Of a DNA stretch of 64,000 nucleotides, positions 16,066 to 29,763 are shown piece after piece. The first letter of the stretch is position 1; each line of letters begins with the position of its first letter. The DNA comes from an uncultured Pseudomonadales bacterium (lineage in GTDB: Bacteria > Patescibacteriota > Microgenomatia > UBA1400 > MFAQ01): contig CAZGSP010000039.1 in NCBI GenBank assembly GCA_964528565.1, positions 10,411 to 74,410 of the forward strand, written 5' to 3'. Position numbers and translations under genes: made by a program. The notes below the pieces were generated by a model. The model was not told the origin of the DNA and did not search any database. It was given only the letters and a program-made list of their open reading frames with translations.

Positions 16066-16857
16066 CTACTTGGTAACTGTAATATAAAGGCTATTTAAAC
16101 CTAGGGTTGAGAGTAGCTGATCCGGAAGAATTGCGGATAGTTTTTCCAGGTAATCAGAACACCATAAGTTCTTATATGGATAAAAGTAATTCAACAGATT
16201 GGGATTGATAATGGGTCTGAAAGACTCGGTGAAGCCCATCTCTCTACTTAAGTCATGGATTGATTTGTAAGAGTATCTGCCAACGTGATGGTAAACTGAG
16301 ACCTGAGAGAAGAAATTATTTGCAGTTTTGTCCTTTTTAATCCTGATGGATGAAGGACAAATAATTAGATATCGACCGCCTTTTTTTAGCAAGGAATGGA
16401 CTTCAGCTAAGTGCCTTTTAATATCTTTTGGATGAATATGCTCCACCACATGATGCGAGAAGGCACAATCAACTTTAAGATTTCTGACTTGTTCAAGGTC
16501 AAGCTCGTAGTTTTTATCGCGATTCAGCTGGACGGTGTTTGCGGGGAAGTTACCCTTTAGTTTTGGGATTGCAGAGAAGTATACCTTTTTGAATTTTAAA
16601 GCAAAAAGTTTTATCTCAGCCAGCGAAGGGCTGATTAAATAAACAGTGAGAGTGGAAGTATCCCCTGAAAAAAAAGTAGGTAGTTTACGGTTTGAGACAG
16701 TACTCTCGTTCCCCAAATCCAATTTGGCGACCTCTTGGTACCAACCAGAATAGTATTCTTCGGCAAGACGCATTCGAGATTTGTAGCTTTGCTGAAGGTT
16801 AATTTCCTTATAAAAATTCTTGGCCTCAGCCAACACCTTCTGTTTGTTCATAATCAA
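16066..16857 (-). CDS. Class I SAM-dependent methyltransferase (Methyltransf_11/12-like).
   Basis: CAFSHHVVEHIHPKDIKRHLAEVHSLLKKGGRYLIICP is the motif II / post-I region of small-molecule MTases. Confidence 0.5.
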   Translation of the reverse strand: MIMNKQKVLAEAKNFYKEINLQQSYKSRMRLAEEYYSGWYQEVAKLDLGNESTVSNRKLPTFFSGDTSTLTVYLISPSLAEIKLFALKFKKVYFSAIPKLKGNFPANTVQLNRDKNYELDLEQVRNLKVDCAFSHHVVEHIHPKDIKRHLAEVHSLLKKGGRYLIICPSSIRIKKDKTANNFFSQVSVYHHVGRYSYKSIHDLSREMGFTESFRPIINPNLLNYFYPYKNLWCSDYLEKLSAILPDQLLSTLGLNSLYITVTK

Positions 16858-16861
16858 CAGG

Positions 16862-18442
16862 CTATGCCGGAATTCTTTTTTTACTAACGGGCGTATAAAG
16901 AATAGACCTGGTCGTATTTTTTAGAAAGCTTCTAGTAAATAATTTCACGCCCGTATATATCAATTTCGCAGTATACCTAAAATCCTCGAAGCTATTAATT
17001 TTATTTAGTATTCTAATTGGATTTAGATATGACATTGCTCGATAAGCTATGAAACTCCGATAGGCATGTAAATGAAGTTTTTTAATTTCATCTTTGTCAA
17101 AATTCATAGTAGGTGCCGCCTCTTCGTTCAGCATTTTATACATTTCCTGATACTTCTTTTGATCAAATTTCATTGTTTTGAAGATATCATCAAAATTTAA
17201 TAAACCTTCCTTTTTAAAATCTTCATAAACGGGAGATGTGGGTTGAGGGCTGAGGGTGAAAAAGGCGGCGAAGTCTGTTCCGGAATGTTTAGCAAAATTT
17301 ATAGTATCGAGTATTTGCTCTTTTGTTTCATATGGGAATCCCAAAATGTGGGTACAGATAGTCCACATGCCGATTTTATTGGCATATTGTATTAACTCTT
17401 TTGCCTGCGCCAAGCTATGAGTTTTGTGAATATATTCTCTAATGTCTTTATTTCCGGATTCTATGCCAAAAGTGATACGGTAGCAGCCGGCTTTTTTCAT
17501 CTTTTTGATCAACCGCTTATCAAGGGTCCAATGGGCGATTCCATTCGGAGTGGTCCACCTAATATCCAGTTTTCTTTTAATTATTTCATCACAGATTTCT
17601 CCCCATCTTTTCTTATTAACGGCAGCAGAATCGTCCAAAAAGCCGATTTCGTTTATGCCATAGGTGTTGTGGAGCAACTCTAGTTCGTCGACTGTTTTGA
17701 CTGCGCTTTTACCTCTCCAAGTTCTACCCCATACTGCCCTTACGGTGCAGTAAACACAATCGCCGGGACAGCCGCGACTGGACATAATTCCCAAAACGGG
17801 TGTCCTCATGGTATAAATACTTCCCTTGGATAGACCGGCATACTTTTTGACATCGACCAAAGAATAATCTAAGGGCGGAAGTTTGTTCAGGTCCCAAATA
17901 AGCCGACGCTTTTCGTTTTCGATGATTTTTCTTCCTTTTTTGTAGACTAGCCCTTTTATATCTGAGACATCTAGATTTTTTTCTAATAGATGACGGCTTA
18001 ATTCCAGTAAAGTTTCTTCTCCCTCTCCGACCACTACATAGTCAAACATGCCCATGCCAACAATCCATTTGGCGAAAGAGGATGCATGATTACCTCCGGT
18101 GACAATCTTTATTTTTGGATTTATCTTTTTGATGTAGGTCGCCAAGTTAACAATATCTTGGAAATGTCTGGAATACATACAAGACAAACCAATCAAGATT
18201 GGTTTCTTTTCGTTAATTATTTTTTTGATTTCAGCATTAGATTTACCACATCTTTTCCGTTTACCGTCTGTGATCCAATCATTGAAATCAAACATTCCTA
18301 ATTCTTCGATGCTACATGAGACGCCATTGGCGTTGAGATAGGTTGCAAGATTTAGTAAATTTAGTGGAAGGCTGGCCAAAATCAACTCCTGAGAGTCTTC
18401 CTCCACTGTGTAGTATTGATTGAAAAGCAGAACATTTGACAT
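16862..18442 (-). CDS. B12-binding-domain radical SAM enzyme (class B radical SAM, candidate methyltransferase).
   Basis: N-terminal cobalamin-binding-like domain (…IGLSCMYSRHFQDIVNLATYIKKINPKIKIVTGGNHAS…). Radical SAM CxxxCxxC motif SSRGCPGDCVYCT. ATG start confirmed. Confidence 0.75.
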   Translation of the reverse strand: MSNVLLFNQYYTVEEDSQELILASLPLNLLNLATYLNANGVSCSIEELGMFDFNDWITDGKRKRCGKSNAEIKKIINEKKPILIGLSCMYSRHFQDIVNLATYIKKINPKIKIVTGGNHASSFAKWIVGMGMFDYVVVGEGEETLLELSRHLLEKNLDVSDIKGLVYKKGRKIIENEKRRLIWDLNKLPPLDYSLVDVKKYAGLSKGSIYTMRTPVLGIMSSRGCPGDCVYCTVRAVWGRTWRGKSAVKTVDELELLHNTYGINEIGFLDDSAAVNKKRWGEICDEIIKRKLDIRWTTPNGIAHWTLDKRLIKKMKKAGCYRITFGIESGNKDIREYIHKTHSLAQAKELIQYANKIGMWTICTHILGFPYETKEQILDTINFAKHSGTDFAAFFTLSPQPTSPVYEDFKKEGLLNFDDIFKTMKFDQKKYQEMYKMLNEEAAPTMNFDKDEIKKLHLHAYRSFIAYRAMSYLNPIRILNKINSFEDFRYTAKLIYTGVKLFTRSFLKNTTRSILYTPVSKKRIPA

Positions 18443-18506
18443 GAGTTTGATTATTTATTTGGAAGGTTTTGACAATAAGAGATTGTAACCCCTGTTGGTG
18501 TATTTT

Positions 18507-20342
18507 TCATCCATGTTGAGATAGCCAGTAGTTGACGGCGAATATTCTTAGTAATTTGAATTGGTTGTCTTGAAGACCACCCATGTGGTCACCGTATAGC
18601 TTGTTAACGTATTTTTGATTGAATACATTATTTTTTTGATGAAGATAATAAGAAAAAGTTTCCTTTAGTTCTTTCTTTATCCATTTATCCAATGGTACCC
18701 CAAATCCCCTCTTGGGTCGGTAGATGAATTCCTTGGGATAGAATCTTTCAGCCAATTTCTTGGTTAGATATTTGGTGACACCATCTTTAATTTTCCAGTT
18801 TCCGCCTAAGGAGAATGCGTATTCGGCCAGGTCAGTGTCCAAAAACGGATTTCTCATCTCGACCGAAGCGGCCATACAAGCCCGGTCTCCTTTCACCAAA
18901 TACCAGTCAGGTAACTGAATCCGGCAATCCAAGTAAAGGCTTTTGTTAACTATGTCATTCTGTTCAAACTCGGTCTCAGCCAAATAGGCCTCCGAAAAGA
19001 CCTCTGCCACAGACAGTTTGTGATTAAACAATTGTTCGGCTTCTTCTCTCATAAAACTGCCGCTGCCGAAAATGAACTGCCTTTCGGGAAATTGGTATTG
19101 ATAGCCAGATAATAGTTTGTTGATATTTGGGCTGATTGACATGCGACCCAGCAAATATGCAAGTGGTTTGAGATACTTAGTTCTTTCGATCAAGGACTGT
19201 GCCCTGTATTTTTCGTATCCTCCGAAGATCTCATCCCCACCGTCGCCGCTCAGGACCACCGTCATATCCTTCTTGGCCTGTTTAGCTACAAAGTACAGCG
19301 GTACGACGGCAGCATCCGCCAAAGGCTCATCTAGATAATCCATGATCTCTAAGAAAGTTGCCTGAACATCTTTTCCACTGAATTCACACAGATGATAATC
19401 TAAATCGTATTGGTCGACCACTTGCCTCACATGTTTTGATTCATCTGCCTCCGGGGTGTCTTTGTAGCTTACCGTGTAGGTACAGATATTTGAGGCATGT
19501 TTGGACATATAATGGGCAATCAGACTACTGTCGATGCCTCCACTTAAGAACAAACCCAACGGGACATCAGACATCAATCTCTTTTCCACAGCACTGTCCA
19601 GAAGCCGATCAATCTTGTTAACTATTTCAGTTTCACCCAGTTGGCCGACAGTTTTGATTTGACCAAGATCCCAATATCTTTTTTTGTTGGTTAGTTTCCA
19701 GTTTCTTATATCAAATTGTATGGTGGTAGCAGCCTCAAGTTTAAAAATGTTTTTATAGATAGTTTCCGGGGAAGGAATATATCCATAAAAAATAAATTTT
19801 TCGATGGCCTGATAGTTTATAGACACTTTCTTACTAATTTGAGGATTCGAGACGATTGCTTTCAACTCTGAGGCGAAGCAGAAGGTACTATCATCGAGAT
19901 AATAATAGAGAGGTTTCTTGCCAAATCTGTCCCTGCCTAGAGTAATTAGGTCCTTCGTTTGATCGTACAATCCGAATGCAAACATACCGTCAATACGCTT
20001 GACGATTTCTTGCCCATATTCTTCGTAACCATGGATTATAGATTCGGTGTCAGAGACGCTATTCCACGTGTGTTTTCTTTTTAGCGACTTCTTTACATGT
20101 AAGAAATTGTAGATTTCGCCATTGAAAACTATGGCAATCGTTTTGTCTTCATTGAACATGGGTTGTCTGCCATTTTCAGATAGATCGACGATTGATAACC
20201 TGGTTTGCCCCAGAGCAATATTACGGGAAAAGTATTGACCTTTCTGGTCCGGACCACGTCTACCGAGAGACGAGAGCATTTTCTCAAAAACATGAGGATC
20301 TACTTTGTTCTTATTGTTAACTTGTCCAACAATTCCGCACAT
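18507..20342 (-). CDS. asnB: Asparagine synthase (glutamine-hydrolysing) family amidotransferase.
   Basis: N-terminal MCGIVGQV has the class-II glutamine amidotransferase Cys2 nucleophile. PP-loop SGGIDSS. 611 aa. Confidence 0.8.
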   Translation of the reverse strand: MCGIVGQVNNKNKVDPHVFEKMLSSLGRRGPDQKGQYFSRNIALGQTRLSIVDLSENGRQPMFNEDKTIAIVFNGEIYNFLHVKKSLKRKHTWNSVSDTESIIHGYEEYGQEIVKRIDGMFAFGLYDQTKDLITLGRDRFGKKPLYYYLDDSTFCFASELKAIVSNPQISKKVSINYQAIEKFIFYGYIPSPETIYKNIFKLEAATTIQFDIRNWKLTNKKRYWDLGQIKTVGQLGETEIVNKIDRLLDSAVEKRLMSDVPLGLFLSGGIDSSLIAHYMSKHASNICTYTVSYKDTPEADESKHVRQVVDQYDLDYHLCEFSGKDVQATFLEIMDYLDEPLADAAVVPLYFVAKQAKKDMTVVLSGDGGDEIFGGYEKYRAQSLIERTKYLKPLAYLLGRMSISPNINKLLSGYQYQFPERQFIFGSGSFMREEAEQLFNHKLSVAEVFSEAYLAETEFEQNDIVNKSLYLDCRIQLPDWYLVKGDRACMAASVEMRNPFLDTDLAEYAFSLGGNWKIKDGVTKYLTKKLAERFYPKEFIYRPKRGFGVPLDKWIKKELKETFSYYLHQKNNVFNQKYVNKLYGDHMGGLQDNQFKLLRIFAVNYWLSQHG

Positions 20343-20350
20343 ATTTTTGT

Positions 20351-21265
20351 TTATTCGTGAAACGACCAGTTTAATTTACCGGTTATTAAATACGTTATTC
20401 CATCGAGAAAACCAAGCCAGTAAAGTTTGATCAAACTGAAATTTAGTTTTTTAAGAACCAGAAGCGAGTAGACTACCGGCCAGAACCAAGAAAAAATGAT
20501 TAGATAAACAGCCTTTTGCGTCAAACTTCCATACCTGGAAACTATCACGGTCCGATTCCTCATCAGACAGTAGGCCTTTTGTCTAAACATTCCACCCAGG
20601 CTCCTGGGTTTGAAATTATCCTCTTTACTGGTTTGATGATATGTTTTGGCGCTTTTGAGAATGACACAGCCAATACCGTGTTTCTTGGCATTGAGAGCGA
20701 AGTCCGGCTCAGTAAACGTTTGAACCAGTTGTTCATCAAAGTATCCGCATTTTTCGAATACGGATTTTTTAATTAAAAATACATTTGGCACTCCATCGGA
20801 GTTGCAGGTATGACTTCTGGTGTTGTCGACATGACCGGTTGTTTTGCCGGTATAGAAATTTATCTTTTGAAAATCCAGATACTTTTCGCCGTTTGAATAG
20901 TACATCGATGGTCCGATAATGCCGATCTTAGGATGTTCGTTGGCAAATCCAACTAAATTCTTTATCATTTCTCTATCCACAATATTATCGTCATCAACAA
21001 AGAGAATCAGCTCACCTTTGGCTTTCTTAGCGCCTTCATTGCGACTTTTGACCATCATATACTGTTCACGATTGTGGACGATGGTGCCGGGAATGGAAAA
21101 TTGTTTTAATGTAGCACCAGAAATGCTCCTGGTTTTGTCCGAAGAAAAATCGTCGACTATGATCAGTTCAGTTTGAGTGGGTAGTGAGGACAGGGATAAT
21201 GATTTTACACACCGTATTAGATCTTCATAGCGATTCCTGGTAGTGATGACAATGCTGAGTGTCAT
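20351..21265 (-). CDS. Glycosyltransferase family 2.
   Basis: LSIVITTRNRYEDLIRCVKSL … ELIIVDDFSSDKT … ILFVDDDNIV. Confidence 0.7.
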   Translation of the reverse strand: MTLSIVITTRNRYEDLIRCVKSLSLSSLPTQTELIIVDDFSSDKTRSISGATLKQFSIPGTIVHNREQYMMVKSRNEGAKKAKGELILFVDDDNIVDREMIKNLVGFANEHPKIGIIGPSMYYSNGEKYLDFQKINFYTGKTTGHVDNTRSHTCNSDGVPNVFLIKKSVFEKCGYFDEQLVQTFTEPDFALNAKKHGIGCVILKSAKTYHQTSKEDNFKPRSLGGMFRQKAYCLMRNRTVIVSRYGSLTQKAVYLIIFSWFWPVVYSLLVLKKLNFSLIKLYWLGFLDGITYLITGKLNWSFHE

Positions 21266-22194
21266 TTGGTAGCAATTACCTTGACCATCGGCCAGAACAA
21301 ACGGCTGTTTTCTGCCAGCCAGATAAAGATTGGCCTTATTTGTTTTGGTAAAAATGAGAACTGAAGGGCAATTTTGAACCTGTCGACTGTCACTTTTTTG
21401 AATCCAACGGCTCTATGAACCTTAACCAAGGTAGACGCCAAAAAAGACATCTCGTATCCAAATATCATATGAGTGCCCTTGAGTACTTTGATATGAATAA
21501 ACTCGGCTAGTTGCTTTAGAACCGGAACATTGGGTATATTGCCCCACAGTTGTCGATAGGTCAATGACGCCAAGTTCAGGTACGGGACGGTGTTAATGGC
21601 AAGACCACGAGGTTTTAAGACCCGATACATTTCTTGAACCGATCCCTTGGTGTCTTTGAAATGCTCGATCACTCCACCTCCGTAAATTACGTCTATCGAA
21701 TTATTTTTGATGGGTAAATGCAGGATGTTTCCCTGAATTAGAATAAAATTTTTGATTTTCCGGTCGGAAAGCATTTTTTCGGCAATCTGAAGCGCAGAGA
21801 GACTGAGATCGATGCCAACAATTTGTTTATAGAGTGGAGCAAGTTCCTGGCCAAGAAAAAAATTTCCGCAGCCTATTTCAAGATAAATGTGGTTTTTTTG
21901 GTTATGCAGGTCGAGCGGGAACACATTAAGGACATCCTTTAAATAGTGTCTTTGGTAATAACGGTGTTCGGCCTTGTATTTTTTTTCTGTGTTTTGTCCC
22001 TTATAAAAGTCGTCCCACTTTTCTGAAGATAGAATTAAATCTTGACTTAATGTATCGGCGAAGGAGTAAATGTTTCCTATTTTTTTACCCAAAACTGACC
22101 CACATTTGTCACAAACAATGTGCAATTTGTTATTGATATTGACATATCCATGACACAATGGGCAACTTAAAATCTCCTTAATAGGTGCGGACAT
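21262..22194 (-). CDS. Class I SAM-dependent methyltransferase with an N-terminal Trm112-like zinc ribbon.
   Basis: LSCPLCHGY…CDKCGS ribbon. Motif I YLEIGCGNFFLGQELA … IVGIDLS. Confidence 0.6.
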   Translation of the reverse strand: MSAPIKEILSCPLCHGYVNINNKLHIVCDKCGSVLGKKIGNIYSFADTLSQDLILSSEKWDDFYKGQNTEKKYKAEHRYYQRHYLKDVLNVFPLDLHNQKNHIYLEIGCGNFFLGQELAPLYKQIVGIDLSLSALQIAEKMLSDRKIKNFILIQGNILHLPIKNNSIDVIYGGGVIEHFKDTKGSVQEMYRVLKPRGLAINTVPYLNLASLTYRQLWGNIPNVPVLKQLAEFIHIKVLKGTHMIFGYEMSFLASTLVKVHRAVGFKKVTVDRFKIALQFSFLPKQIRPIFIWLAENSRLFWPMVKVIATK

Positions 22195-22894
22195 CTTTAA
22201 AAATCGAGTTTAAGCCGTTGTTAATAACTAATTTGTATTCCTGTGAAACTAAGAGCTTTTTAATTTCTGAATTTTCATTTGTATTGTTTTGTGTTACATT
22301 TTCGACACAAATTACTTCCGGCCTGTATTTTTCCCAGTCGTTGCTCTTCAGTATGATCACATCATAACCCTCGGTATCTATCGTCAGAAAATCAATGTTT
22401 CTGACGTTGAACTTTTTAAGTAAATTTTTCAGAGGCAATGTGTCGATTTTCTTGATGGATTCAATATCAAAACCCTGTTTAACATAGTTGTCAGCTTCCT
22501 TTTTCGAAAAAGTCGAGAGAGTGTCGGTGTGGAAATTATAAAAAGATAGTTTTTCTTTGGTGTCGCTAATGCCTACGTTAATGTTCGTATCTTCAGGCCT
22601 TATCCTTTTTAATCTTTCAAACTTCTTGGTATTTGGCTCAACATTAATTCCCCTCCACCCTTTGAGATAAAATCTGTAAGTGTTATTAAATCTAACAGGG
22701 TCGTTAGCCCCAATGTCAACGAAGAAGCCTTTGGTTTTATATCCGTGCAGTTTATCGACAATTAGATCTTCTTGCTGTTGACTGTATGAACCGAGTACGA
22801 ATCTGTAAAAGACGATATATTTTATTTCGCTAATCAGGTACCGGAAGCTCTTTAGCAGACCATAATTAATAATCTTTTTAATTGTGTTTTTCAT
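22178..22894 (-). CDS. FkbM-family methyltransferase.
   Basis: FFVDIGANDPVRFNNTYRFYLKGWRGINVEPN is the FkbM signature (V-D-I-G-A-N … E-P). Confidence 0.55.
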   Translation of the reverse strand: MKNTIKKIINYGLLKSFRYLISEIKYIVFYRFVLGSYSQQQEDLIVDKLHGYKTKGFFVDIGANDPVRFNNTYRFYLKGWRGINVEPNTKKFERLKRIRPEDTNINVGISDTKEKLSFYNFHTDTLSTFSKKEADNYVKQGFDIESIKKIDTLPLKNLLKKFNVRNIDFLTIDTEGYDVIILKSNDWEKYRPEVICVENVTQNNTNENSEIKKLLVSQEYKLVINNGLNSIFKDVRTY

Positions 22895-24032
22895 TTAGCG
22901 CTTGTGGGAATATCTGTCTCCAGGAGAGTGATTTGGCGTATGTAATTGTGTTTTGGCTTAAACTTTTTAACTTTGTTTTATCTATTAGAATATCAACAAT
23001 ATCTTTACTCAAGTCGTTTCTTATTATAGCTCCACAACTGTTGTTTTCTATCTCTTTTGCATTATACGGAACGTCCGATACAAGTACGGGTAAACCACAG
23101 GCCATATAGAGCTTTAACTTGGCCGGATCGGCAAAATATGTAAAGGAGAGGTGTCCTTTGTCGTCGTACTTTTCGTAGGGTGCGATGGCTAGAGAGTACT
23201 GCGGGAGTTGAGCCTCAATATCTTTGTGATCTTTAATATACCCTTTGAACTCTACAAATTTGGATACATTTAGATTAACGGAGAGATCCTTTAGGGTATC
23301 CAGGTAGTCTCCCCCGCCAAAGACAACAAACTTGAAGTTGGGTATTTTTTTGATTATTGTTGGGATCACTTCTATGACGTCTTGAATTCCTTGCTTCTTG
23401 GTGATGTGGCCCATGAAAACGAGTGAATTAGGAATTTTAGTAACATTCTGATTGATGCGTTCGGTCCAAACACCGACCGGTACAACTTTCTGATGCCCAC
23501 CCGTGAAACCAAAGTATTTCCTCCTCCCCCATTCCATACGAGGTGAGAGATTCCAGGTTTCATCGGCGTGTCTGACACAGAACTGATCTATTTGATGGTA
23601 GATGTAGTTTAGGGCTTTGTTCTCGAAACGGTAGGGGTTGTAGTCAATGACATAATAAATAACCTTCTTTACATGTCCCCGCTTTTTAAGAAATATGCCG
23701 GATAAAGCATTGAGATTGTCGCTACCCACGAACAAATCCCATTTTCTCCCCGTCTGTCCTACCCACTTTATGGTTAGCCAAATATCTTTTAAGTAGGAAA
23801 AAATTGCCGGTGTCTTCTTGATAGGTGCATAGTTTTCTTCCGTAAGCTTACCATTCCGGTATCTTTCACAGCCTGACCCCTTGAGTTTCATGTCAAAAAA
23901 TAGTGGGTGGCCGATAAACAAAAGATTCTCTATAGTCTCTCCGTTAAGGTAGTCCTTCAGATCCTGGGCCGGACCTGTTGTATAGACGTGTGTGGCTATA
24001 ACTACGGAAGCTAAGGTAAGTTTTCTGTTCAC
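22878..24032 (-). CDS. Glycosyltransferase family 4 (GT-B fold).
   Basis: The C-terminal domain has …FKFVVFGGGDYLDTL… and …MACGLPVLVSDV…, typical of GT4. The track start is a GTG. Confidence 0.7.
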   Translation of the reverse strand: MNRKLTLASVVIATHVYTTGPAQDLKDYLNGETIENLLFIGHPLFFDMKLKGSGCERYRNGKLTEENYAPIKKTPAIFSYLKDIWLTIKWVGQTGRKWDLFVGSDNLNALSGIFLKKRGHVKKVIYYVIDYNPYRFENKALNYIYHQIDQFCVRHADETWNLSPRMEWGRRKYFGFTGGHQKVVPVGVWTERINQNVTKIPNSLVFMGHITKKQGIQDVIEVIPTIIKKIPNFKFVVFGGGDYLDTLKDLSVNLNVSKFVEFKGYIKDHKDIEAQLPQYSLAIAPYEKYDDKGHLSFTYFADPAKLKLYMACGLPVLVSDVPYNAKEIENNSCGAIIRNDLSKDIVDILIDKTKLKSLSQNTITYAKSLSWRQIFPQALNEKHN

Positions 24033-24044
24033 GGTTGTTGGATC

Positions 24045-24980
24045 TTAGTTCTTGAAGTTGTTTAGGAACCAATCGTATTCTATACCGATTCCCTTTTCCT
24101 GTTCCATTTGAGGTTTCCAACCAAGCGAGAGAAGTTTAGAAACATCTAACAATTTTTTGGGGGTGCCGTCCGGTTTGGTTGAATCCCAAACTATTTTTCC
24201 TTTGAAACCGACGATTTTTTTGATAATTTGGGCAAGCTCTTTAATTTTGAGATCCACTCCGGTGCCAATGTTAATGATTTCTGAGCTATCATAATGCTCC
24301 ATAAGATAGACACAAGCGTCGGCCATATCATCGACGTAAAGAAATTCTCGATAGACGTTTCCCGTTCCCCACAAGACGACCTCTTTTTTATGCCCAATTT
24401 TGGCATCATGGAATTTACGAATTAAGGCAGGAAGGACGTGAGAGCTATCTAAATCAAAGTTGTCATGTGGTCCGTAAAGATTCGTAGGCATGACAGAAAT
24501 GAAATTAGTTCCATATTGCTCGTTGTAGCTTTGGCACATCTTGATACCTGCAATTTTGGCAATGGCATAAGCGTCGTTTGTCTCCTCTAGAGGGCCGGTC
24601 AATAAATATTCCTCTTTGATCGGCTGTGGAGCTAATTTTGGATAGATACAGGAACTTCCCAAGAACATCAGTTTTTTCACTTTATATTCCCAAGCGGAAT
24701 GGATTACATTATTCTGAATTTGAAGATTGTTATATATAAAATCTGCTTTTTTGGTTTTGTTTGCCATAATCCCCCCCACCAAAGCGGCTGCCAGAAATAC
24801 ATACTCAGGTTTTTCCTTTTTGAAGAACAACTCCACCTGTTCCGGCTTTTCTAAATCCAGTTCCGATCTTGTTTTGGTAATAATATTTGTATAACCCCGT
24901 CGCTTAAGGGATCGGACGATTGCCGTTCCCACCAATCCACTCTGGCCGCCGGCTACATAGATTTTTGCATTCTTGTTCAT
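24045..24980 (-). CDS. fcl: GDP-L-fucose synthase (GDP-4-keto-6-deoxy-D-mannose 3,5-epimerase/4-reductase).
   Basis: N-terminal KIYVAGGQSGLVGTAIVRSL Rossmann fold and overall collinearity with Fcl (…YNLGTG…). The track start (24992) is a TTG. The ATG at 24980 (MNKNAKIYVAGG…) gives a 1-nt overlap with the upstream GT2. Confidence 0.75.
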   Translation of the reverse strand: MNKNAKIYVAGGQSGLVGTAIVRSLKRRGYTNIITKTRSELDLEKPEQVELFFKKEKPEYVFLAAALVGGIMANKTKKADFIYNNLQIQNNVIHSAWEYKVKKLMFLGSSCIYPKLAPQPIKEEYLLTGPLEETNDAYAIAKIAGIKMCQSYNEQYGTNFISVMPTNLYGPHDNFDLDSSHVLPALIRKFHDAKIGHKKEVVLWGTGNVYREFLYVDDMADACVYLMEHYDSSEIINIGTGVDLKIKELAQIIKKIVGFKGKIVWDSTKPDGTPKKLLDVSKLLSLGWKPQMEQEKGIGIEYDWFLNNFKN

Positions 24981-25999
24981 TATTGTTTCCAATTATTACG
25001 ATTTGATTCAGCCGGAATAATTTTACCTCTTACCCACCCATAAATATATATAAATAGGGTAGCGTAACAGGCAATGGGGTGGAAGAACCACGCCAGGTCG
25101 GGTTTTCTAATGTACCCGATGACCATCTGGTAAAGTATGGGAAAAATCAGAATGCAAGAAAAGACGAACTTAAGAATACCTGTCATAAACGAACCTTCCC
25201 AATCGACATCCCTATTCTTCTTGGCTTTGTGAAAGGACATATCGTTGATCCTTCGGAGTTGTTTACGGAAAAACTTGGCGACGTCGTTTTCGACGAAGGT
25301 GTGAATGATGCCGGCCTCTACTTTGGCAATTTTGACGGCACCTTCCGAGCGGATGAGTTTTAGAAGAATATCGATGTCAAATAAATAATCTGAGTGCTTG
25401 GTGGCTTTTTGGAGATATTCTTTTCGAAAAATAGTGCCATTTGCACCGATAGTTGGTATTGGCTCGTGATCGAGGGTTACTTCCAGATAGCCACTTTTCT
25501 GTGCCTCAGGAAATTTAAGATCAGTCCAACGATTGGTAATATACGAAAAACGATCGTAGTTCCCAATGAAGAGACAAATTGGGTCGTTCATGCCCAATAA
25601 GGCAAAATAGCGTGTAAGGAGTGGATCTTGCCGGCGGTAGGTATAGCGAATTGGTTCGGAGACAATAATGCTCTGGTCGGTAAAAGGTTGCACCATATCG
25701 GAGAGCCAATGATTGTTGGGGAGAATATTGTCGGAATCGATAAGTGCTATCAGGTCGCCTTTGGCGGCTTTGACGGCCACAGCTTTTCCCGATTCGCCGG
25801 TTCTAAGTTTGTTTGGGATAACGGTCGCACGGTACTTTTTGGCTAAACTAACAGTATTGTCTGTCGACCCTCCGTCCCCTATCAGAATTTCTATTTTCGT
25901 TTTCGGATATTTTTGAATGGATATAGACCTCAGACACTTTTCCAGGACCATTCCGGAGTTGAGAGTAGGGATGACAATTGATATTGATGGCTGGTTCAT
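24980..25999 (-). CDS. Glycosyltransferase family 2 with C-terminal transmembrane helices (candidate ArnC/DPM1-like polyprenyl-phosphate glycosyltransferase).
   Basis: ISIVIPTLNSGMVLEKCL … IEILIGDGGSTDNT … LIALIDSDNIL, plus a hydrophobic C-terminus (…FVFSCILIFPILYQMVIGY…). Confidence 0.65.
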   Translation of the reverse strand: MNQPSISIVIPTLNSGMVLEKCLRSISIQKYPKTKIEILIGDGGSTDNTVSLAKKYRATVIPNKLRTGESGKAVAVKAAKGDLIALIDSDNILPNNHWLSDMVQPFTDQSIIVSEPIRYTYRRQDPLLTRYFALLGMNDPICLFIGNYDRFSYITNRWTDLKFPEAQKSGYLEVTLDHEPIPTIGANGTIFRKEYLQKATKHSDYLFDIDILLKLIRSEGAVKIAKVEAGIIHTFVENDVAKFFRKQLRRINDMSFHKAKKNRDVDWEGSFMTGILKFVFSCILIFPILYQMVIGYIRKPDLAWFFHPIACYATLFIYIYGWVRGKIIPAESNRNNWKQ

Positions 26000-26001
26000 G
26001 T

Positions 26002-27573
26002 TTAACTACTCAGGACATCTCCGTGTTGGCCAAGCTGTTTGGGTGAAAAGTCCATCATGTGACCGAGAAAGCGCCAGCCGGCCATGAAAAGGAATTTTAT
26101 ATCATCTAGATTTCTGATCTCGGTGATTTTTCTCATCATAAATTTTGGACTGAGAAAAGATTTATAGAGGTCTTGGGTTAGTTCCAACACCTGTTTCTCG
26201 GTAAGTGAAGATTTCATCACTGGCTTGCGCATGTCGTAGTCGTCGTAGTCTTCGGACAGAAGCCAGCCTTCTTTCTTGCATTCTTTCCATAGTGGAGTAC
26301 CGGGATAAGGAATTACTACAGTGGCTTGAAGTGTATCCACATAACCTTTTTCAAAACATTTCTTGGCCAGGTCAACAGTATTCCTGGCGTCCTCATATGT
26401 TTCCCAAGGGTACCCCATCATTATAGTAAGGTGAGGGTCTAGTCCACCCTTCTTGGCCATACGCACTCCCTCCTCTATTTGTTCGACCTTCAATCCCTTA
26501 TCCAAATGATCAAGGGTGTATTGGTTGGCGGATTCCATACCGTAAAGAATGAAACGGAAATTGGCCTTGCCCATAAGATCGTAATGCTCTTGCTTTAGGG
26601 CATTGAGACGCATATTGCAGCCGTAGACCACTTTCTTACTGTAGCCGGATTCAATCATCATGTTGCAAAAATCCATTAGAGGTTTGCCGATCATAAAAGT
26701 GCCGGCGTCATCAAAGATTTCTTTGACGTGATACTTGTCCACCACATATTTGACTTCATCAAATAATCTTTGTGGGGTAAACCTGCGGTATGAACCAACC
26801 GGGTTGATGGTGTGATCCCAAACACAGAAAGTGCAACGATTCCACCAACAGTCGCGACCGGAGTACATATAGGTAGCGGGGGTGTACTTGTAATTGCCGT
26901 TGTAAACAGAATAGAGTTCCCACTTGGTCAGGTTGCGGTCGACGAACGGAAGTTCGTTTAGATCGTGAGCGATGCTGGGTTTGCCGGAATTAGCATAGGC
27001 GGCTTTGCCTTTTCTCTTAATGGTTTCTGCCGGTTTTTGTTTGATCTTCTTGTCCCCCACTCTCCACCAGATACCGCCTTCCAGCTCCGTCCCCATGGTG
27101 AGGTGATCAAGCAGATTAACAATACCGAAATCATAATCGCCGCCGGTGATGAGGTAATCGACCTTGCTGTTATCCATCATTTCTTCAGGGGCAAAGGTAA
27201 CATGGTCCCCCACCCAGACCAAAAGTAATTTAGGGAGTTCTTTCTTGAGGATCCGGGTCAGAGCCCAGTGTTTTTTGACGATCGGAGACTTGGTTTCGAC
27301 CATGAGGATGTCCGGTTGGAATCTCTTCAGCTCCTTGAGCCACTGCTCAAATGTCTGCTCTTCGGCGATACCGTCCATCCATTTCACTTTGTAACCATGC
27401 GTCTTAGCATTTGAGGCCGCGTAGGCCGGAACCATAGGGTAGATGTAGGTCTTGGCGTTGAAATATTGGAACTGGCGGTTTTGAGACAAGAGCATGACTC
27501 CCTTGTCCGAGGGCATGGGTGGATAGCCGACGACTAAGCGTAATTGTTTTGATTTTGGGGATTTTTTTAACAT
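26002..27573 (-). CDS. B12-binding-domain radical SAM enzyme (second copy).
   Basis: Radical SAM motif RDCWWNRCTFCVWD and an N-terminal B12-binding-like region (…LLVWVGDHVTFAPEEM…). The track start at 27645 is a GTG and overlaps the ferredoxin ORF by 58 nt. The ATG at 27573 avoids that overlap. Confidence 0.75.
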   Translation of the reverse strand: MLKKSPKSKQLRLVVGYPPMPSDKGVMLLSQNRQFQYFNAKTYIYPMVPAYAASNAKTHGYKVKWMDGIAEEQTFEQWLKELKRFQPDILMVETKSPIVKKHWALTRILKKELPKLLLVWVGDHVTFAPEEMMDNSKVDYLITGGDYDFGIVNLLDHLTMGTELEGGIWWRVGDKKIKQKPAETIKRKGKAAYANSGKPSIAHDLNELPFVDRNLTKWELYSVYNGNYKYTPATYMYSGRDCWWNRCTFCVWDHTINPVGSYRRFTPQRLFDEVKYVVDKYHVKEIFDDAGTFMIGKPLMDFCNMMIESGYSKKVVYGCNMRLNALKQEHYDLMGKANFRFILYGMESANQYTLDHLDKGLKVEQIEEGVRMAKKGGLDPHLTIMMGYPWETYEDARNTVDLAKKCFEKGYVDTLQATVVIPYPGTPLWKECKKEGWLLSEDYDDYDMRKPVMKSSLTEKQVLELTQDLYKSFLSPKFMMRKITEIRNLDDIKFLFMAGWRFLGHMMDFSPKQLGQHGDVLSS

Positions 27574-27587
27574 TTGAGTTGGTTTAT

Positions 27588-27854
27588 CTAGGGGAAGATT
27601 TGCTTCCCGTTTTGGTCTTTTATAAATATAGCAAGAATGGGACACGATCTGGCGGCTTCTTTTACTTTCTCAAGAGAATCGCCATCCGGATCAATGATAA
27701 TGGCCTTGCCGTCCGAATCTCTTAGATAAAAGGTCAATGGAGCGGCAATAGAACATGGACCGGCCGATATGCATTTATTAAGATCTACCGTTATGGTATA
27801 GCCATCCTTACGAGTAGCCTCACTTTTATCTTCGGTGGTATTAACTTGGACCAT
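27588..27854 (-). CDS. Small ferredoxin-like iron-sulfur protein (single [4Fe-4S]/[3Fe-4S]-type).
   Basis: 88 aa. Contains DLNKCISAGPCSIAAP … DSLEKVKEAARSCPILAI, a Cys pattern (C-x-x-x-x-C…C-P) like mono-cluster ferredoxins. The ATG overlaps the upstream GT2 stop by 1 nt. Confidence 0.5.
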   Translation of the reverse strand: MVQVNTTEDKSEATRKDGYTITVDLNKCISAGPCSIAAPLTFYLRDSDGKAIIIDPDGDSLEKVKEAARSCPILAIFIKDQNGKQIFP

Positions 27855-28852: not shown

Positions 28853-29763
28853 TACTTATATCTTAACCTGAGATTCGGATCCCCGTCCCAGAGATCGGAG
28901 TGACCATCGTCATAATAACGGAGAATGTGTGTTCGATAAATGATGGCCAGATAGTCAATAAAATAATTCTGGATTGAGGATAATCCAACATTGCTGGAAA
29001 AATTGTAGGATATTTCTACCGGTGATTCATAGATTCGTTTAAACCCCAAATGGTTGGCTACCGTTAAAATTTCAAGATCAAAAGCCCATCTCTTAACAAT
29101 TAAACGAGGAAGAACGTTTACCAAGACTTCTCTTTTGAAAACTTTGAGTCCTGTCTGGGTATCGGAAACGTCAAGACCAAAGACAAATTTGGTGGCTTTC
29201 TGAACAAAATAAGAAAGGATTCTTCTCTGTAAGGGATAGATTACTTTGCTGGCATGATGACGTTTACTGCCGATAATAATATCGGCGTTGTACCACTTCA
29301 TGTGTTCGAGAGCAAGACCGATACCTTTGGCGTGAAGATCCGATCCTGCATCGATAAAGGCAATTATTCCTCCTTTTGCTCGAGCCATCCCGTAACGAAT
29401 AGCATAACCCTTGCCTTTGTTTTCAGGATAAAAATATATTTGTGTACTCCTGAACTTGATTTTTTTGGCCAGTTCGTAAGTTTTATCCTTGGGTGTTTTC
29501 CGACCATCTACCACGCAAATAATCTCGTAAGGACGATTCAGGAAATCCAAATGAAGTTTGATAAAGGCCAGGTCTTTATCGATCGTCTTGCAATTGAACG
29601 CAGGAACGATAACCGAAAGTAAGTTTGGATCGACTTTGGATACTTTATTTGAGGCGGCAATGGGCATGAGGAGATTATATACTTTAGTGAGAGTCGTAGG
29701 TGCAAAATTATTAACGACTTGGGTGAAATACCTTATGATCGTTGCGGGAGAGTAGAAAGACAA
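28852..29763 (-). CDS. Glycosyltransferase family 2, DPM1/GtrB-like (candidate polyprenyl-phosphate hexose synthase).
   Basis: LSVIVPAFNCK … YEIICVVDGRKTPKD … ENKGKGYAIRYGMARAKGGIIAFIDAGSDL resembles the DPM1/GtrB/ArnC catalytic core. Confidence 0.6.
   Translation of the reverse strand: MSFYSPATIIRYFTQVVNNFAPTTLTKVYNLLMPIAASNKVSKVDPNLLSVIVPAFNCKTIDKDLAFIKLHLDFLNRPYEIICVVDGRKTPKDKTYELAKKIKFRSTQIYFYPENKGKGYAIRYGMARAKGGIIAFIDAGSDLHAKGIGLALEHMKWYNADIIIGSKRHHASKVIYPLQRRILSYFVQKATKFVFGLDVSDTQTGLKVFKREVLVNVLPRLIVKRWAFDLEILTVANHLGFKRIYESPVEISYNFSSNVGLSSIQNYFIDYLAIIYRTHILRYYDDGHSDLWDGDPNLRLRYK

What the first reader, a model, noticed from the sequence alone, without database searches (positions are those of the whole stretch)
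16066..27854. A methylation and tailoring block: two B12-binding radical SAM enzymes, a ferredoxin, four SAM methyltransferases and an AsnB amidotransferase.
Within 12 kb, interleaved with GT2, GT4 and fcl, sit several modifying enzymes. There are two class-B-like radical SAM proteins (CxxxCxxC plus N-terminal cobalamin-binding-like domains, 16862-18442 and 26002-27573). The second is directly preceded by an 88-aa ferredoxin-like gene (27588-27854), a plausible reductant for the [4Fe-4S] cluster. There is an FkbM-type MTase, two Trm112-ribbon MTases and one further class-I MTase. There is also an AsnB-type amidotransferase, and AsnB homologs in O-antigen loci amidate uronic acids. Together this predicts a heavily methylated glycan, possibly C-methylated (B12-rSAM chemistry as in GenK or Fom3) and amidated. 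The dedicated ferredoxin / radical SAM pairing inside a glycosylation locus is uncommon.
Basis: partly seen in the sequence, partly recalled or inferred. Interest (0 to 1): 0.65.

Follow-up and report, generated by a model that had tools for sequence, protein, structure and literature searches.

The report
Two-part glycan-tailoring operon in CPR bacterium
The flagged block is real, but it joins two things: a ferredoxin, radical-SAM enzyme and glycosyltransferase module conserved across many ultra-small (CPR) bacteria and not found described in the searched literature, and a strain-specific set of ordinary sugar-decorating genes.

Summary
The genes exist as described, with corrections. The interval holds three methyltransferases, not four. 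The second radical SAM enzyme has a CX4CX2C cluster motif. Its B12-domain Pfam score is just under threshold, though its fold is class-B-like. It starts at ATG 27573. The ferredoxin has three Cys ligands (CxxAxxC…CP) in all 63 homologs, which is the [3Fe-4S] type.

The block is part of one 14-gene minus-strand operon (30979→16066) in a 64-kb glycosylation island of a Collierbacteria-like CPR bacterium. It has two evolutionary units.

- **Conserved core.** Wzx-like flippase, GT2_a, GT2_b, ferredoxin, rSAM2 and often GT2_c. It is syntenic across Collier-, Woese-, Roizman-, Gottesmanbacteria and WWE3. rSAM2 is 63–92% identical and 196 of 523 positions are ≥97% conserved. GT2_b lies upstream in 57/57 loci and the ferredoxin in 57/69. 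Some orthologs carry inteins inside the Fe-S motif.
- **Variable cassette.** Fcl, GT4, FkbM, ribbon methyltransferase, GT2_d, AsnB, a canonical B12-rSAM and a class-I methyltransferase. The full set was found in one other genome.

Most likely the ferredoxin feeds electrons to rSAM2, which modifies a polyprenyl-phosphate-linked sugar before flipping. Whether this is C-methylation or a non-methylating radical reaction is unresolved. The nearest curated family is HpnJ; the nearest folds are AprD4 and OxsB.

The parts
29711..30979 (-). Multi-pass membrane protein, candidate Wzx/MOP-type flippase.
   Evidence: The window protein has no Pfam or NCBIfam hit. Its WWE3 counterpart at the same position hits PF13440 Polysacc_synt_3. 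A homolog lies upstream of rSAM2 in 41/57 loci, a count limited by the score threshold.
28852..29763 (-). GT2_a, a soluble-type GT2. Candidate polyprenyl-phosphate sugar synthase. The true start is probably the internal ATG giving 271 aa (28852-29667).
   Evidence: PF00535 56 bits. The best NCBIfam hits are PpgS (polyprenyl-phospho-GalNAc synthase, 51 bits) and AglJ, all far under cutoff. It was called as 271 aa on an identical contig. It lies upstream of rSAM2 in 50/57 loci. It is fused to GT2_b in L005, L033 and L039.
27854..28852 (-). GT2_b, a GT2 with a hydrophobic C-terminal region. The invariable partner of rSAM2.
   Evidence: PF00535 58 bits. The best NCBIfam hits are MftF (90 bits) and AglG (glucosyl-dolichyl-phosphate glucuronosyltransferase, 68 bits), both under cutoff. 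It lies upstream of rSAM2 in 57/57 loci with at least 5 kb of upstream sequence.
27588..27854 (-). 88-aa mono-cluster ferredoxin with three Cys ligands (C28-x2-A-x2-C34 … C71-P), the [3Fe-4S] type. It has a conserved C-terminal GKxx[YFW]P.
   Evidence: PF13370 39.1 bits and PF13459 34.8 bits, both above threshold. PDB relatives are 1rof, 1dax and 1f2g (D. gigas FdII). Among 63 homologs the first two Cys are invariant, the Ala replacing the usual second ligand is invariant, and the C-P motif is present in 62 of 63. It lies upstream of rSAM2 in 57/69 loci. Among 59 loci with all three genes it is adjacent to both GT2_b and rSAM2 in 42, to GT2_b only in 13 and to rSAM2 only in 4.
26002..27573 (-). 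rSAM2, a 523-aa radical SAM enzyme. It has an N-terminal Rossmann (B12-type) domain, a CX4CX2C cluster motif and three further invariant Cys (C303, C319, C432). It belongs to a CPR-wide family.
   Evidence: It is 63-95% identical to orthologs in Collier-, Woese-, Roizman-, Gottesmanbacteria and WWE3. 196 of 523 positions are at least 97% conserved. HpnJ is the best curated family at 165.9 bits against a cutoff of 577.6. The start at ATG 27573 is supported.
24980..25999 (-). GT2_c, a GT2 with a hydrophobic C-terminal region. A frequent but not obligatory downstream neighbour of rSAM2.
   Evidence: PF00535 73 bits. A homolog lies within 6 kb downstream in 23/51 loci.
24045..24992 (-). GDP-L-fucose synthase-like (Fcl) short-chain epimerase/reductase.
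   Evidence: NF047922 480.4 bits, just under the cutoff of 500. PF01370 221 bits. No Gmd was found among the window ORFs I scanned.
22878..24032 (-). GT4 glycosyltransferase.
   Evidence: PF00534 69 bits.
22178..22894 (-). FkbM-family SAM methyltransferase.
   Evidence: PF05050 80.8 bits. TIGR01444 51.3 bits, above the 37.7 cutoff.
21262..22194 (-). Class-I SAM methyltransferase with an N-terminal CxxC…CxxC ribbon.
   Evidence: PF08241 70 bits. The N-terminus reads SCPLCHG…VCDKCGS.
20351..21265 (-). GT2_d, a GT2 with a hydrophobic C-terminal region.
   Evidence: PF00535 88 bits.
18507..20342 (-). AsnB-type glutamine-dependent amidotransferase.
   Evidence: PF00733 282 bits and GATase_7 141 bits. 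TIGR01536 451.6 bits, above the 267.1 cutoff. TIGR03108 (EPS-associated amidotransferase) 455 bits, below its 817 cutoff. Cys2 is present (MCGIVGQ).
16862..18442 (-). rSAM1, a 526-aa canonical class-B (B12-binding) radical SAM enzyme and probable methyltransferase.
   Evidence: PF02310 59.2 bits and PF04055 86.7 bits. The motif is CPGDCVYC. The best NCBIfam hits are BchE and the Sden_1168 P-methyltransferase, both at 171 bits and far under cutoff. Distribution is patchy: Omnitrophota, Torokbacteria, Parcubacteria and Verrucomicrobiae at 50-63% identity. It sits next to class-I methyltransferases, and a paralogous B12-rSAM is fused to one in L087.
16066..16857 (-). MT_a, a divergent class-I SAM methyltransferase. 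Last gene of the operon, 4 nt after rSAM1.
   Evidence: PF08241 26.1 bits, above the 21.2 threshold. PF13489 26 bits, just under its threshold of 27. No NCBIfam hit.

Best explanation
The flagged 12 kb is the downstream four-fifths of one tightly packed 14-gene minus-strand operon (30979→16066). It lies inside a 64-kb glycosylation island of a Collierbacteria-like CPR bacterium and is a composite of two units.

**Unit 1, conserved core (30979-26002, plus GT2_c).** It comprises a Wzx-like flippase, GT2_a, GT2_b, a three-Cys ferredoxin and rSAM2. The proposed mechanism is as follows.
- GT2_a charges a polyprenyl phosphate with a sugar, and GT2_b extends or re-glycosylates it at the cytoplasmic face.
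- The co-translated [3Fe-4S]-type ferredoxin passes an electron to the CX4CX2C [4Fe-4S] cluster of rSAM2.
- rSAM2 cleaves SAM to a 5'-deoxyadenosyl radical, abstracts a hydrogen from the lipid-linked sugar and installs a chemically difficult modification. This is either C-methylation through cobalamin or a non-methylating rearrangement or deoxygenation.
- The flippase then exports the product. The many GT-C (PMT_2/YfhO) enzymes of the island transfer it to envelope acceptors.

**Unit 2, strain-variable cassette (24992-16066).** It adds fucose-type, O-methyl, amide and probably C-methyl decorations. The genes are Fcl, GT4, FkbM, the ribbon methyltransferase, GT2_d, AsnB, rSAM1 and MT_a.

**Shown:** gene identities, the synteny statistics, the Cys patterns and the fold.

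**Inferred:** electron transfer from ferredoxin to rSAM2, a lipid-linked sugar as substrate, and the reaction type.
For: - **Operon packing:**
- **Island context:** at least 9 PMT_2-type GT-C ORFs, YfhO, and at least 12 GT2 ORFs.
- **Core synteny:** the order is the same in WWE3, Roizmanbacteria and other Patescibacteria and across 80 species-level genomes. Among loci with at least 5 kb of upstream sequence, GT2_b is present in 57/57, GT2_a in 50/57 and the ferredoxin in 48/57. The ferredoxin is present in 57/69 loci with at least 1.5 kb upstream. GT2_a and GT2_b are fused in L005, L033 and L039.
- **Strong constraint on rSAM2:** 196 of 523 positions are at least 97% identical, and the CX4CX2C Cys are invariant. 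Inteins are inserted at the motif.
- **Ferredoxin conservation:** the three-Cys pattern holds across homologs.
- **Fold:** a class-B two-domain fold.
- **Family context:** relatives at 38-40% identity also lie in GT2 plus GT-C glycan clusters with several B12-rSAM paralogs.
- **GT2 affinities:** GT2_a resembles polyprenyl-P-sugar synthases and GT2_b resembles AglG, both weakly.
- **Variable cassette:** the full set occurs only in L010.
- **Precedents:** native ferredoxins support turnover of the class-B enzyme BchE (PMC13598231). A GT2 followed by an rSAM acting on a lipid-linked sugar is the HpnI/HpnJ arrangement (PMC13459092).
Against: - No substrate or product is known for any member of the rSAM2 family, and no paper was found on it.
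- All similarities to curated families are far below cutoff.
- From general knowledge, a [3Fe-4S] cluster usually has a higher potential than is ideal for reducing a radical-SAM cluster or Co(II). The ferredoxin may therefore be a poor reductant or serve another role.
- The ferredoxin is absent from 12 of 69 loci. When the genes are separated it stays with GT2_b more often (13 loci) than with rSAM2 (4 loci).
- The flippase assignment rests on an ortholog's Pfam hit only.
- The promoter and terminator scans were uninformative, so the single-operon reading rests on gene spacing alone.
Confidence: 0.6

Rival explanations
1. It is a cobalamin-dependent C-methyltransferase like GenK, Fom3 or MoeK5. 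It methylates an unactivated carbon of the glycan, with the ferredoxin supplying both electrons per turnover.
For: - The fold is class B and matches MgmA, TsrM, CysS and TokK.
- PF02310 is called in many orthologs.
- Most characterised class-B enzymes are methylases (PMC13598231).
- HpnJ groups with the methylases Fom3 and MoeK5 in the published sequence network (PMC9204698).
Against: - The B12-domain score is below threshold here.
- The top fold hit is AprD4, followed by the non-methylase OxsB. To my recollection AprD4 is cobalamin-free.
- The best curated family is HpnJ, a proposed non-methylase.
- In BchE the native ferredoxins did not readily reduce cobalamin to Co(I).
- From general knowledge, a three-Cys cluster is an unlikely Co(II)/Co(I) reductant, and CPR bacteria cannot make cobalamin.
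Confidence: 0.4
2. rSAM2 is a non-methylating radical enzyme acting on a lipid-linked sugar. The reaction would be ring contraction to a carbocycle (HpnJ/Cds-like), 1,2-diol dehydration or deoxygenation (AprD4-like), epimerisation or oxidation. The Rossmann domain would be structural or hold cobalamin in a non-methyl role. The ferredoxin would act as a catalytic one-electron donor or acceptor.
For: - HpnJ is the best NCBIfam hit, with near full-length alignment (residues 41-503 to profile positions 29-464). It scores 55 bits above BchE.
- AprD4 and OxsB are the top fold hits.
- The obligate GT2 partner mirrors HpnI/HpnJ.
- An invariant extra Cys (C319) lies in a predicted barrel strand (residues 316-320) and could act as an H-atom donor.
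- A three-Cys ferredoxin suits a redox-neutral reaction that needs only priming.
Against: - The HpnJ score is 166 against a cutoff of 578. None of the ten relatives at about 30-35% identity that I scanned is a true HpnJ.
- No deacetylase (HpnK-like) or reductase (AprD3-like) partner lies in the core.
- Foldseek E-values for methylases are only 1-5 orders of magnitude weaker.
Confidence: 0.35
3. The ferredoxin and rSAM2 do not act on the glycan. They modify the lipid carrier or a scavenged membrane lipid, as the Tes, Grs, Gms or HpnR types do, or they modify a protein. Linkage to the GT2 genes would then reflect only shared envelope biogenesis.
For: - Many class-B rSAMs related to the BchE/HpnJ cloud act on lipids. 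Hits include rSAM_ladder_B12 at 56 bits and HpnR at 61 bits, and these enzymes are reviewed in PMC13459092.
- A ferredoxin next to a lipid rSAM has precedent in the Tes homolog.
- From general knowledge, CPR bacteria depend on scavenged lipids.
Against: - There is 100% linkage with a GT2 and frequent linkage with a flippase and a second GT2.
- Relatives are embedded in sugar-nucleotide and GT clusters.
- No lipid-synthesis genes were found among the window ORFs I scanned.
Confidence: 0.15
4. The ferredoxin is not the rSAM2 reductant. It could work with GT2_b or another redox step, or it could act as an iron or cluster donor or repair factor for the oxygen-labile rSAM cluster.
For: - When the genes are separated, the ferredoxin stays next to GT2_b in 13 loci and next to rSAM2 in 4.
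- 12 of 69 loci lack it.
- The cluster is the [3Fe-4S] type.
- Dph3 is a precedent for a small iron protein that converts [3Fe-4S] to [4Fe-4S] in a radical-SAM-type enzyme (PMC8251694, listed; seen only as title and abstract).
Against: - GT2 enzymes have no known redox requirement, and rSAM2 is the only redox enzyme in the core.
- The ferredoxin is adjacent to both genes in 42 of 59 loci.
Confidence: 0.2

Closest known systems
HpnI / HpnK / HpnJ (hopanoid bacteriohopanetetrol cyclitol-ether pathway)
   Same: A GT2 puts a sugar on a lipid, and a B12-domain radical SAM enzyme then remodels that lipid-linked sugar. HpnJ is the best-scoring curated family for rSAM2, with near full-length alignment. 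The biology is from PMC13459092 and PMC9204698.
   Different: The score is 166 against a cutoff of 578. There are no hopanoid genes and no HpnK-type deacetylase. GT2_b does not hit the HpnI model. The cluster motif is CX4CX2C. The module has a dedicated three-Cys ferredoxin and a flippase. The host is a CPR bacterium; from general knowledge these do not make hopanoids.
AprD4 (PDB 6fd2) and OxsB (PDB 5ul4)
   Same: These are the best structural matches to the rSAM2 model, with TM-score (query-normalised) 0.65 and 0.63. Both have an N-terminal Rossmann domain plus a radical-SAM barrel. Both act on sugar or nucleoside rings without methyl transfer.
   Different: Sequence identity is only 14-15%. 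AprD4 needs the partner reductase AprD3, which is absent here. OxsB has extra domains and 729 residues.
Class-B cobalamin radical SAM methyltransferases (GenK, Fom3, MoeK5, TokK, CysS, MgmA)
   Same: rSAM1 has the canonical architecture, with PF02310 at 59 bits and a CX3CX2C motif. rSAM2 shares the fold. From my own recollection of the moenomycin pathway, MoeK5 together with the AsnB-like MoeF5 methylates and amidates a lipid-linked uronic acid. That parallels the adjacent AsnB and rSAM1 genes. This is not verified in the held papers.
   Different: Neither protein reaches any curated family cutoff. The substrate is unknown. The AsnB-rSAM1 adjacency recurs only in L010.
Mono-cluster [3Fe-4S] ferredoxins (D. 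gigas FdII, PDB 1f2g/1fxd; P450-associated CxxAxxC ferredoxins)
   Same: It matches Fer4_13/Fer4_15 and has a CxxXxxC…CP layout with a non-Cys residue at the second ligand position.
   Different: It has a 20-residue N-terminal extension and a conserved C-terminal GKxx[YFW]P tail. It is fixed between a GT2 and a radical SAM gene rather than next to a P450.
Polyprenyl-phosphate sugar pathways with GT-C transferases (AglJ/AglG, PpgS, ArnC/ArnT, GtrB)
   Same: GT2 enzymes (best hits PpgS and AglJ for GT2_a, AglG for GT2_b), a flippase and many PMT_2/YfhO GT-C proteins lie in one island.
   Different: To my knowledge these pathways do not include a radical SAM or ferredoxin step.

Membership tests
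Class B (cobalamin-binding) radical SAM - rSAM1 (16862-18442) | Radical SAM core with a CX3CX2C [4Fe-4S] motif | tested here: met
   PF04055 86.7 bits. The sequence is CPGDCVYC.
Class B (cobalamin-binding) radical SAM - rSAM1 (16862-18442) | N-terminal B12-binding Rossmann domain recognised by profile | tested here: met
   PF02310 59.2 bits, above the threshold of 32.1.
Class B (cobalamin-binding) radical SAM - rSAM2 (26002-27573) | Radical SAM core with a three-Cys cluster motif | tested here: met
   PF04055 60.2 bits. The spacing is CX4CX2C (C242, C247, C250), invariant in 80 orthologs, which departs from the canonical CX3CX2C.
Class B (cobalamin-binding) radical SAM - rSAM2 (26002-27573) | N-terminal B12-binding domain recognised by profile | tested here: inconclusive
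   PF02310 28.6 bits, below the threshold of 32.1. Many but not all orthologs carry a precomputed PF02310 hit. The AF2 model shows a Rossmann domain, and Foldseek aligns both domains to OxsB, TsrM, TokK and AprD4.
Class B (cobalamin-binding) radical SAM - both enzymes | Actual binding and use of cobalamin | not testable with these tools
   This needs purified protein. To my recollection AprD4 shows that the fold alone does not prove cobalamin binding.
HpnJ (TIGR03471) | Score at or above the curated equivalog cutoff of 577.6 bits | tested here: not met
   rSAM2 scores 165.9 bits and rSAM1 144.7 bits. Seven of the ten relatives at about 30-35% identity that I scanned score 206-297 bits; the other three have no hit at E ≤ 1e-40.
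HpnJ (TIGR03471) | Genomic association with hopanoid genes (shc, hpnH, hpnI, hpnK) | tested here: not met
   None was found among the window ORFs I scanned or in the gene tables of the related loci viewed.
BchE (TIGR02026) | Score at or above 481 bits | tested here: not met
   rSAM1 scores 171 bits and rSAM2 111 bits.
Mono-cluster ferredoxin (Fer4_13, PF13370) | Profile score above the gathering threshold | tested here: met
   39.1 bits, above 24.5. PF13459 scores 34.8 bits, above 22.4.
[4Fe-4S] mono-cluster ferredoxin | Four Cys ligands (CxxCxxC…CP) | tested here: not met
   The pattern is CxxAxxC…CP. Ala occupies the second ligand position in the window protein and in all 63 homologs. This indicates the [3Fe-4S] type.
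Asparagine synthase B-type amidotransferase (TIGR01536) | Score above cutoff, Ntn Cys2 nucleophile and synthetase domain | tested here: met
   451.6 bits, above 267.1. The N-terminus is MCGI. PF00733 scores 282 bits. Use of a sugar uronate as acceptor rather than aspartate was not tested.
GDP-L-fucose synthase (NF047922) | Score at or above 500 bits | tested here: not met
   480.4 bits, a narrow miss. No Gmd was found among the window ORFs I scanned.
FkbM methyltransferase | PF05050 and TIGR01444 above their cutoffs | tested here: met
   80.8 bits (above 22.7) and 51.3 bits (above 37.7).
Wzx/MOP flippase | Polysacc_synt-type profile match | tested here: inconclusive
   The window protein has no hit. 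Its WWE3 ortholog hits PF13440.

The most novel reading that the evidence does not exclude
GT2_b, the three-Cys ferredoxin and rSAM2 form a lineage-wide CPR pathway that performs a non-methylating radical remodelling of a lipid-linked sugar. Examples would be ring contraction to a carbocyclic or cyclitol head group, or a deoxygenation, possibly without cobalamin. The product would be an acid- or glycosidase-resistant envelope component characteristic of Microgenomates and WWE3. This would be an HpnI/HpnJ- or Cds-like chemistry recruited to the cell surface of ultra-small bacteria.
Probability: 0.2. Interest if true: 0.75.

Novelty: new variant of a known kind. Interest (0 to 1): 0.5.

Why it matters
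From general knowledge, CPR/Patescibacteria have minimal metabolism, live attached to hosts and have a poorly understood envelope. This window shows a radical-SAM enzyme under unusually strong constraint: about 65% identity across candidate phyla, more than a third of positions at least 97% conserved, and inteins lodged in its Fe-S motif. It is always encoded with a membrane GT2 and usually with its own [3Fe-4S]-type ferredoxin and a flippase. That points to a chemically demanding glycan or lipid-linked-sugar modification that is a core trait of the Microgenomates/WWE3 envelope. It gives a compact four- to five-gene set that can be tested heterologously. It also corrects the view that the ferredoxin/rSAM pair is a peculiarity of this locus. 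The surrounding methyltransferase, AsnB and second rSAM genes are ordinary strain-variable tailoring.

Tried and rejected
- **GTG 27645 as the rSAM2 start.** Rejected. It lies inside the ferredoxin ORF in another frame, and the extension is a gap in over 90% of orthologs.
- **rSAM2 as a true HpnJ or BchE.** Rejected on curated cutoffs. None of the ten relatives at about 30-35% identity that I scanned is HpnJ either.
- **Long relatives (665-972 aa) as Rosetta-stone fusions revealing partners.** They turned out to be intein insertions, not fusions.
- **The ~320-aa gene between ferredoxin and rSAM2 in WWE3 loci.** It has no homolog in the window and gave no lead.
- **PDB 'Cake' and 'Scone' hits to the ferredoxin.** These are repeat-protein artefacts made of many 7-bit stretches.
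- **Promoter and terminator scan.** Counts were at or near shuffle expectation, so it was uninformative.
- **Literature searches for this module.** Four searches found nothing relevant.
- **afdb50 fold library.** Unavailable.
- **Zeng 2018 calditol paper.** Not held.
- **Spatial clustering of C303, C319 and C432.** Model coordinates are not exposed, so this could not be measured.
- **Ferredoxin homolog search.** Because of the word-index limit it reached only the close Collierbacteria clade, 62 hits.

Full report
**What is in the sequence**

Between 30979 and 16066 the minus strand carries 14 ORFs. Gaps or overlaps run from −17 to +64 nt once GT2_a is started at its internal ATG. A divergent plus-strand gene starts at 30951, and convergent plus-strand genes end at 16032. 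Profile searches give the following order:

| Gene | Coordinates | Assignment |
|---|---|---|
| Flip | 29711-30979 | multi-pass membrane protein |
| GT2_a | 28852-29763 | GT2 |
| GT2_b | 27854-28852 | GT2 with hydrophobic C-terminal region |
| Fd | 27588-27854 | Fer4_13 ferredoxin |
| rSAM2 | 26002-27573 | radical SAM |
| GT2_c | 24980-25999 | GT2 |
| Fcl-like | 24045-24992 | epimerase/reductase |
| GT4 | 22878-24032 | GT4 |
| FkbM | 22178-22894 | methyltransferase |
| MT_rib | 21262-22194 | Cys-ribbon class-I methyltransferase |
| GT2_d | 20351-21265 | GT2 |
| AsnB | 18507-20342 | amidotransferase |
| rSAM1 | 16862-18442 | radical SAM |
| MT_a | 16066-16857 | weak class-I methyltransferase |

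The rest of the 64-kb window is also glycosylation machinery. It holds at least nine PMT_2-type GT-C ORFs, including a tandem run at 36866-47764. It also holds YfhO, further GT2 and GT4 genes, and a sugar-nucleotidyltransferase/cupin set at 13013-16032. No tRNA genes were found. The ferredoxin is 100% identical to ACD_61C00186G0034 from an 'uncultured bacterium'. The closest rSAM2 orthologs are in Candidatus Collierbacteria. The window is therefore from a Collierbacteria-like member of the CPR/Microgenomates.

The gene inventory is essentially right, but several details are not.

- Only three methyltransferases lie inside 16066-27854. The second ribbon-type methyltransferase is at 6807-7889.
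- rSAM1 is a textbook class-B enzyme: PF02310 at 59 bits, PF04055 at 87 bits and the motif CPGDCVYC.
- The rSAM2 cluster motif is C242-WWNR-C247-TF-C250, i.e. CX4CX2C. Its B12-domain hit (28.6 bits) is under the Pfam threshold of 32.1.
- An AF2 model built on 30 orthologs (pLDDT 82, pTM 0.85) shows an N-terminal Rossmann domain plus a radical-SAM barrel.
- Foldseek aligns both domains to AprD4 (6fd2, TM-score 0.65), OxsB (5ul4), MgmA (9ccb), TsrM, CysS and TokK. The architecture is class B. To my recollection AprD4 shows that this fold does not guarantee cobalamin binding.
- The rSAM2 start is ATG 27573. The GTG at 27645 is inside the ferredoxin ORF in another frame, and the extra 24 residues align to gaps in over 90% of orthologs.
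- The ferredoxin is a genuine Fer4_13/Fer4_15 protein, related to the T. maritima, D. africanus and D. gigas ferredoxins. It has only three Cys.

**The ferredoxin**

I aligned 63 homologs taken from orthologous loci. The first two ligand Cys and the Ala in the pattern C-[IV]-[SGA]-A-[GA]-[PT]-C are invariant. The downstream C-P is present in 62 of 63. The usual second Cys ligand is Ala in every sequence. From established ferredoxin knowledge this is the signature of a [3Fe-4S] mono-cluster ferredoxin. The ORF is nonetheless clearly a conserved, selected gene. It has a family-specific C-terminal GKxx[YFW]P tail.

**Two evolutionary units**

rSAM2 belongs to a large family.

- More than 4,000 proteins score E<1e-10.
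- At least 154 species-level genomes carry a relative.
- 389 clusters at 50% identity score E<1e-30.
- Orthologs in Collier-, Woese-, Gottesman-, Roizmanbacteria and WWE3 are 63-92% identical to the window protein.
- 196 of 523 positions are at least 97% identical across 80 genomes. These include three extra Cys (C303, C319, C432) and an N-domain loop, LLSQNRQFQ·F.

Gene tables for WWE3, Roizmanbacteria and another Patescibacteria contig show the same order: flippase-like, GT2, GT2, ferredoxin, rSAM. I then ran a scripted synteny survey of 80 loci.

| Measure | Result |
|---|---|
| GT2_b upstream of rSAM2 (≥5 kb upstream available) | 57/57 |
| GT2_a upstream | 50/57 |
| Flippase-like gene upstream | 41/57 |
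| Ferredoxin upstream, same strand (≥1.5 kb upstream available) | 57/69 |
| … of which directly adjacent | 43 |
| … of which separated by an inserted gene or more | 14 |
| GT2_c within 6 kb downstream | 23/51 |

GT2_a and GT2_b are fused in L005, L033 and L039.

The rSAM1 family has a patchy distribution: Omnitrophota, Torokbacteria, Parcubacteria and Verrucomicrobiae at 50-63% identity. It travels with class-I methyltransferases. In L087 a paralogous B12-rSAM is fused to one (768 aa).

**What rSAM2 might do**

All curated-family scores are far under cutoff.

- HpnJ is best at 165.9 bits against 577.6. The alignment is near full length and scores 55 bits above BchE.
- HpnJ is the proposed ring-contractase that converts the GT2-installed glucosamine of bacteriohopanetetrol into a cyclitol ether. 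Cds is proposed to do similar chemistry on archaeal lipids (PMC13459092; PMC9204698).
- None of the ten relatives at about 30-35% identity that I scanned is a true HpnJ either. The family sits in the uncharacterised BchE/HpnJ-like cloud.
- Relatives at 38-40% identity lie in clusters with three to four B12-rSAM paralogs, GT2s, NDP-sugar enzymes and GT-C proteins. This supports a glycan-related role for the wider clade.
- Within that clade the spacing before CX2C varies (X3, X4, X9, X11), and some members have lost the Cys altogether.
- GT2_a weakly resembles polyprenyl-phosphate sugar synthases (PpgS, AglJ). GT2_b weakly resembles AglG, which extends a dolichyl-phosphate sugar.

**Proposed mechanism**

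The following is inferred, not shown. The two GT2s build a polyprenyl-phosphate-linked mono- or disaccharide. The ferredoxin primes the rSAM2 [4Fe-4S] cluster. rSAM2 modifies the sugar through a 5'-deoxyadenosyl radical. The flippase exports the product, and GT-C enzymes transfer it.

Native ferredoxins do support a class-B enzyme, BchE, and in that system they did not readily produce cob(I)alamin (PMC13598231). That finding, the three-Cys cluster, the HpnJ, AprD4 and OxsB affinities, and (from general knowledge) the inability of CPR bacteria to make cobalamin all keep a non-methylating reaction in play. The class-B fold and the predominance of methylases in the class keep C-methylation in play. 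I rate C-methylation at about 0.40, a non-methylating reaction at about 0.35, and a non-glycan substrate at about 0.15.

**The accessory cassette**

rSAM1 is a canonical class-B enzyme and a probable C-methyltransferase. AsnB has the Cys2 nucleophile and passes the TIGR01536 cutoff. It also scores 455 bits on the EPS-associated amidotransferase model TIGR03108, under that model's cutoff.

From my own recollection, moenomycin biosynthesis offers a precedent: an AsnB-like amidotransferase (MoeF5) and a B12-rSAM (MoeK5) act on the same lipid-linked uronic acid. The held papers confirm only that MoeK5 is a class-B enzyme that groups with HpnJ and Fom3. The AsnB-rSAM1 adjacency recurs only in L010. 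A methylated, fucosylated and amidated glycan is a fair prediction, but it is strain-specific decoration and not remarkable.

**Novelty and verdict**

I found no description of the core module in the searchable literature.

The kind is known: a class-B-fold radical SAM tailoring a sugar next to glycosyltransferases.

The variant has distinctive features:
- a CX4CX2C motif;
- an obligate GT2 partner;
- a dedicated [3Fe-4S]-type ferredoxin;
- conservation across several CPR candidate phyla;
- intein invasion at the cluster motif.

As submitted, the finding is partly right and of moderate interest.

Noticed in passing
P0242, P0243, P0244, P0245, P0247 (orthologs of window 26002-27573); insertion point corresponds to window residues F249|C250: Members of the rSAM2 family carry Hint/LAGLIDADG inteins, and P0245 has a mini-intein. 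In P0242 and P0245 the insertion is exactly inside the Fe-S motif (…RDCWWGKCTF|C-intein-N|C…). The +1 extein nucleophile is therefore the third cluster-ligand Cys.
   Followed up: partly
P0257, P0262, P0267, P0271, P0276 and P0258, P0272, P0275 (relatives at 30-38% identity): Some relatives in glycan clusters have lost all three radical-SAM Cys and may be pseudo-enzymes. Others have 9, 11 or more residues between the first and second Cys.
   Followed up: no
window 36866-47764: There is a tandem run of six similarly sized ORFs (545-565 aa) plus one of 273 aa. The three I scanned hit PMT_2 (GT-C). More PMT_2-like ORFs lie at 215-1717, 5285-6778, 32433-33851 and 55348-57000, and a YfhO at 53074-55347. 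This is a large GT-C paralog expansion.
   Followed up: partly
L087 1732-4038: A 768-aa fusion of a class-I SAM methyltransferase with a B12-binding radical SAM domain lies in a Parcubacteria glycan cluster. It sits close to an rSAM1 ortholog that is itself flanked by two methyltransferases.
   Followed up: no
L023 8915-9922, also L033, L034, L038, L040, L050, L061: WWE3-type loci carry a conserved gene of about 270-340 aa between the ferredoxin and rSAM2. Its counterpart in the WWE3 loci L001 and L002 has no precomputed Pfam hit, and it has no homolog in the window.
   Followed up: partly
window 26002-27573, residues 28-38: The invariant loop LLSQNRQFQ·F lies in the N-terminal Rossmann domain. 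Canonical class-B enzymes have PPLGL… at this position. The loop is predicted with low confidence (pLDDT about 50-60) and could be a cofactor or substrate contact.
   Followed up: no
window 24045-24992: The Fcl-like gene scores 480 bits against a cutoff of 500. No GDP-mannose 4,6-dehydratase was found among the window ORFs I scanned. The plus-strand genes at 13013-16032 (nucleotidyltransferase, weak GatZ-like protein, mannose-6-P-isomerase-type cupin) may supply the sugar nucleotide.
   Followed up: no
L031 4430-4678 and 9569-9907: One WWE3 genome has two copies of the three-Cys ferredoxin in the module. One lies next to the flippase-like gene and one next to rSAM2.
   Followed up: no
L089 and L090: Glycan clusters of uncultured bacteria hold four or five B12-type radical SAM genes each, interleaved with GT2, GT4, YfhO or PMT_2 genes and a SPASM rSAM. 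This suggests radical tailoring of glycans is widespread in these lineages.
   Followed up: no
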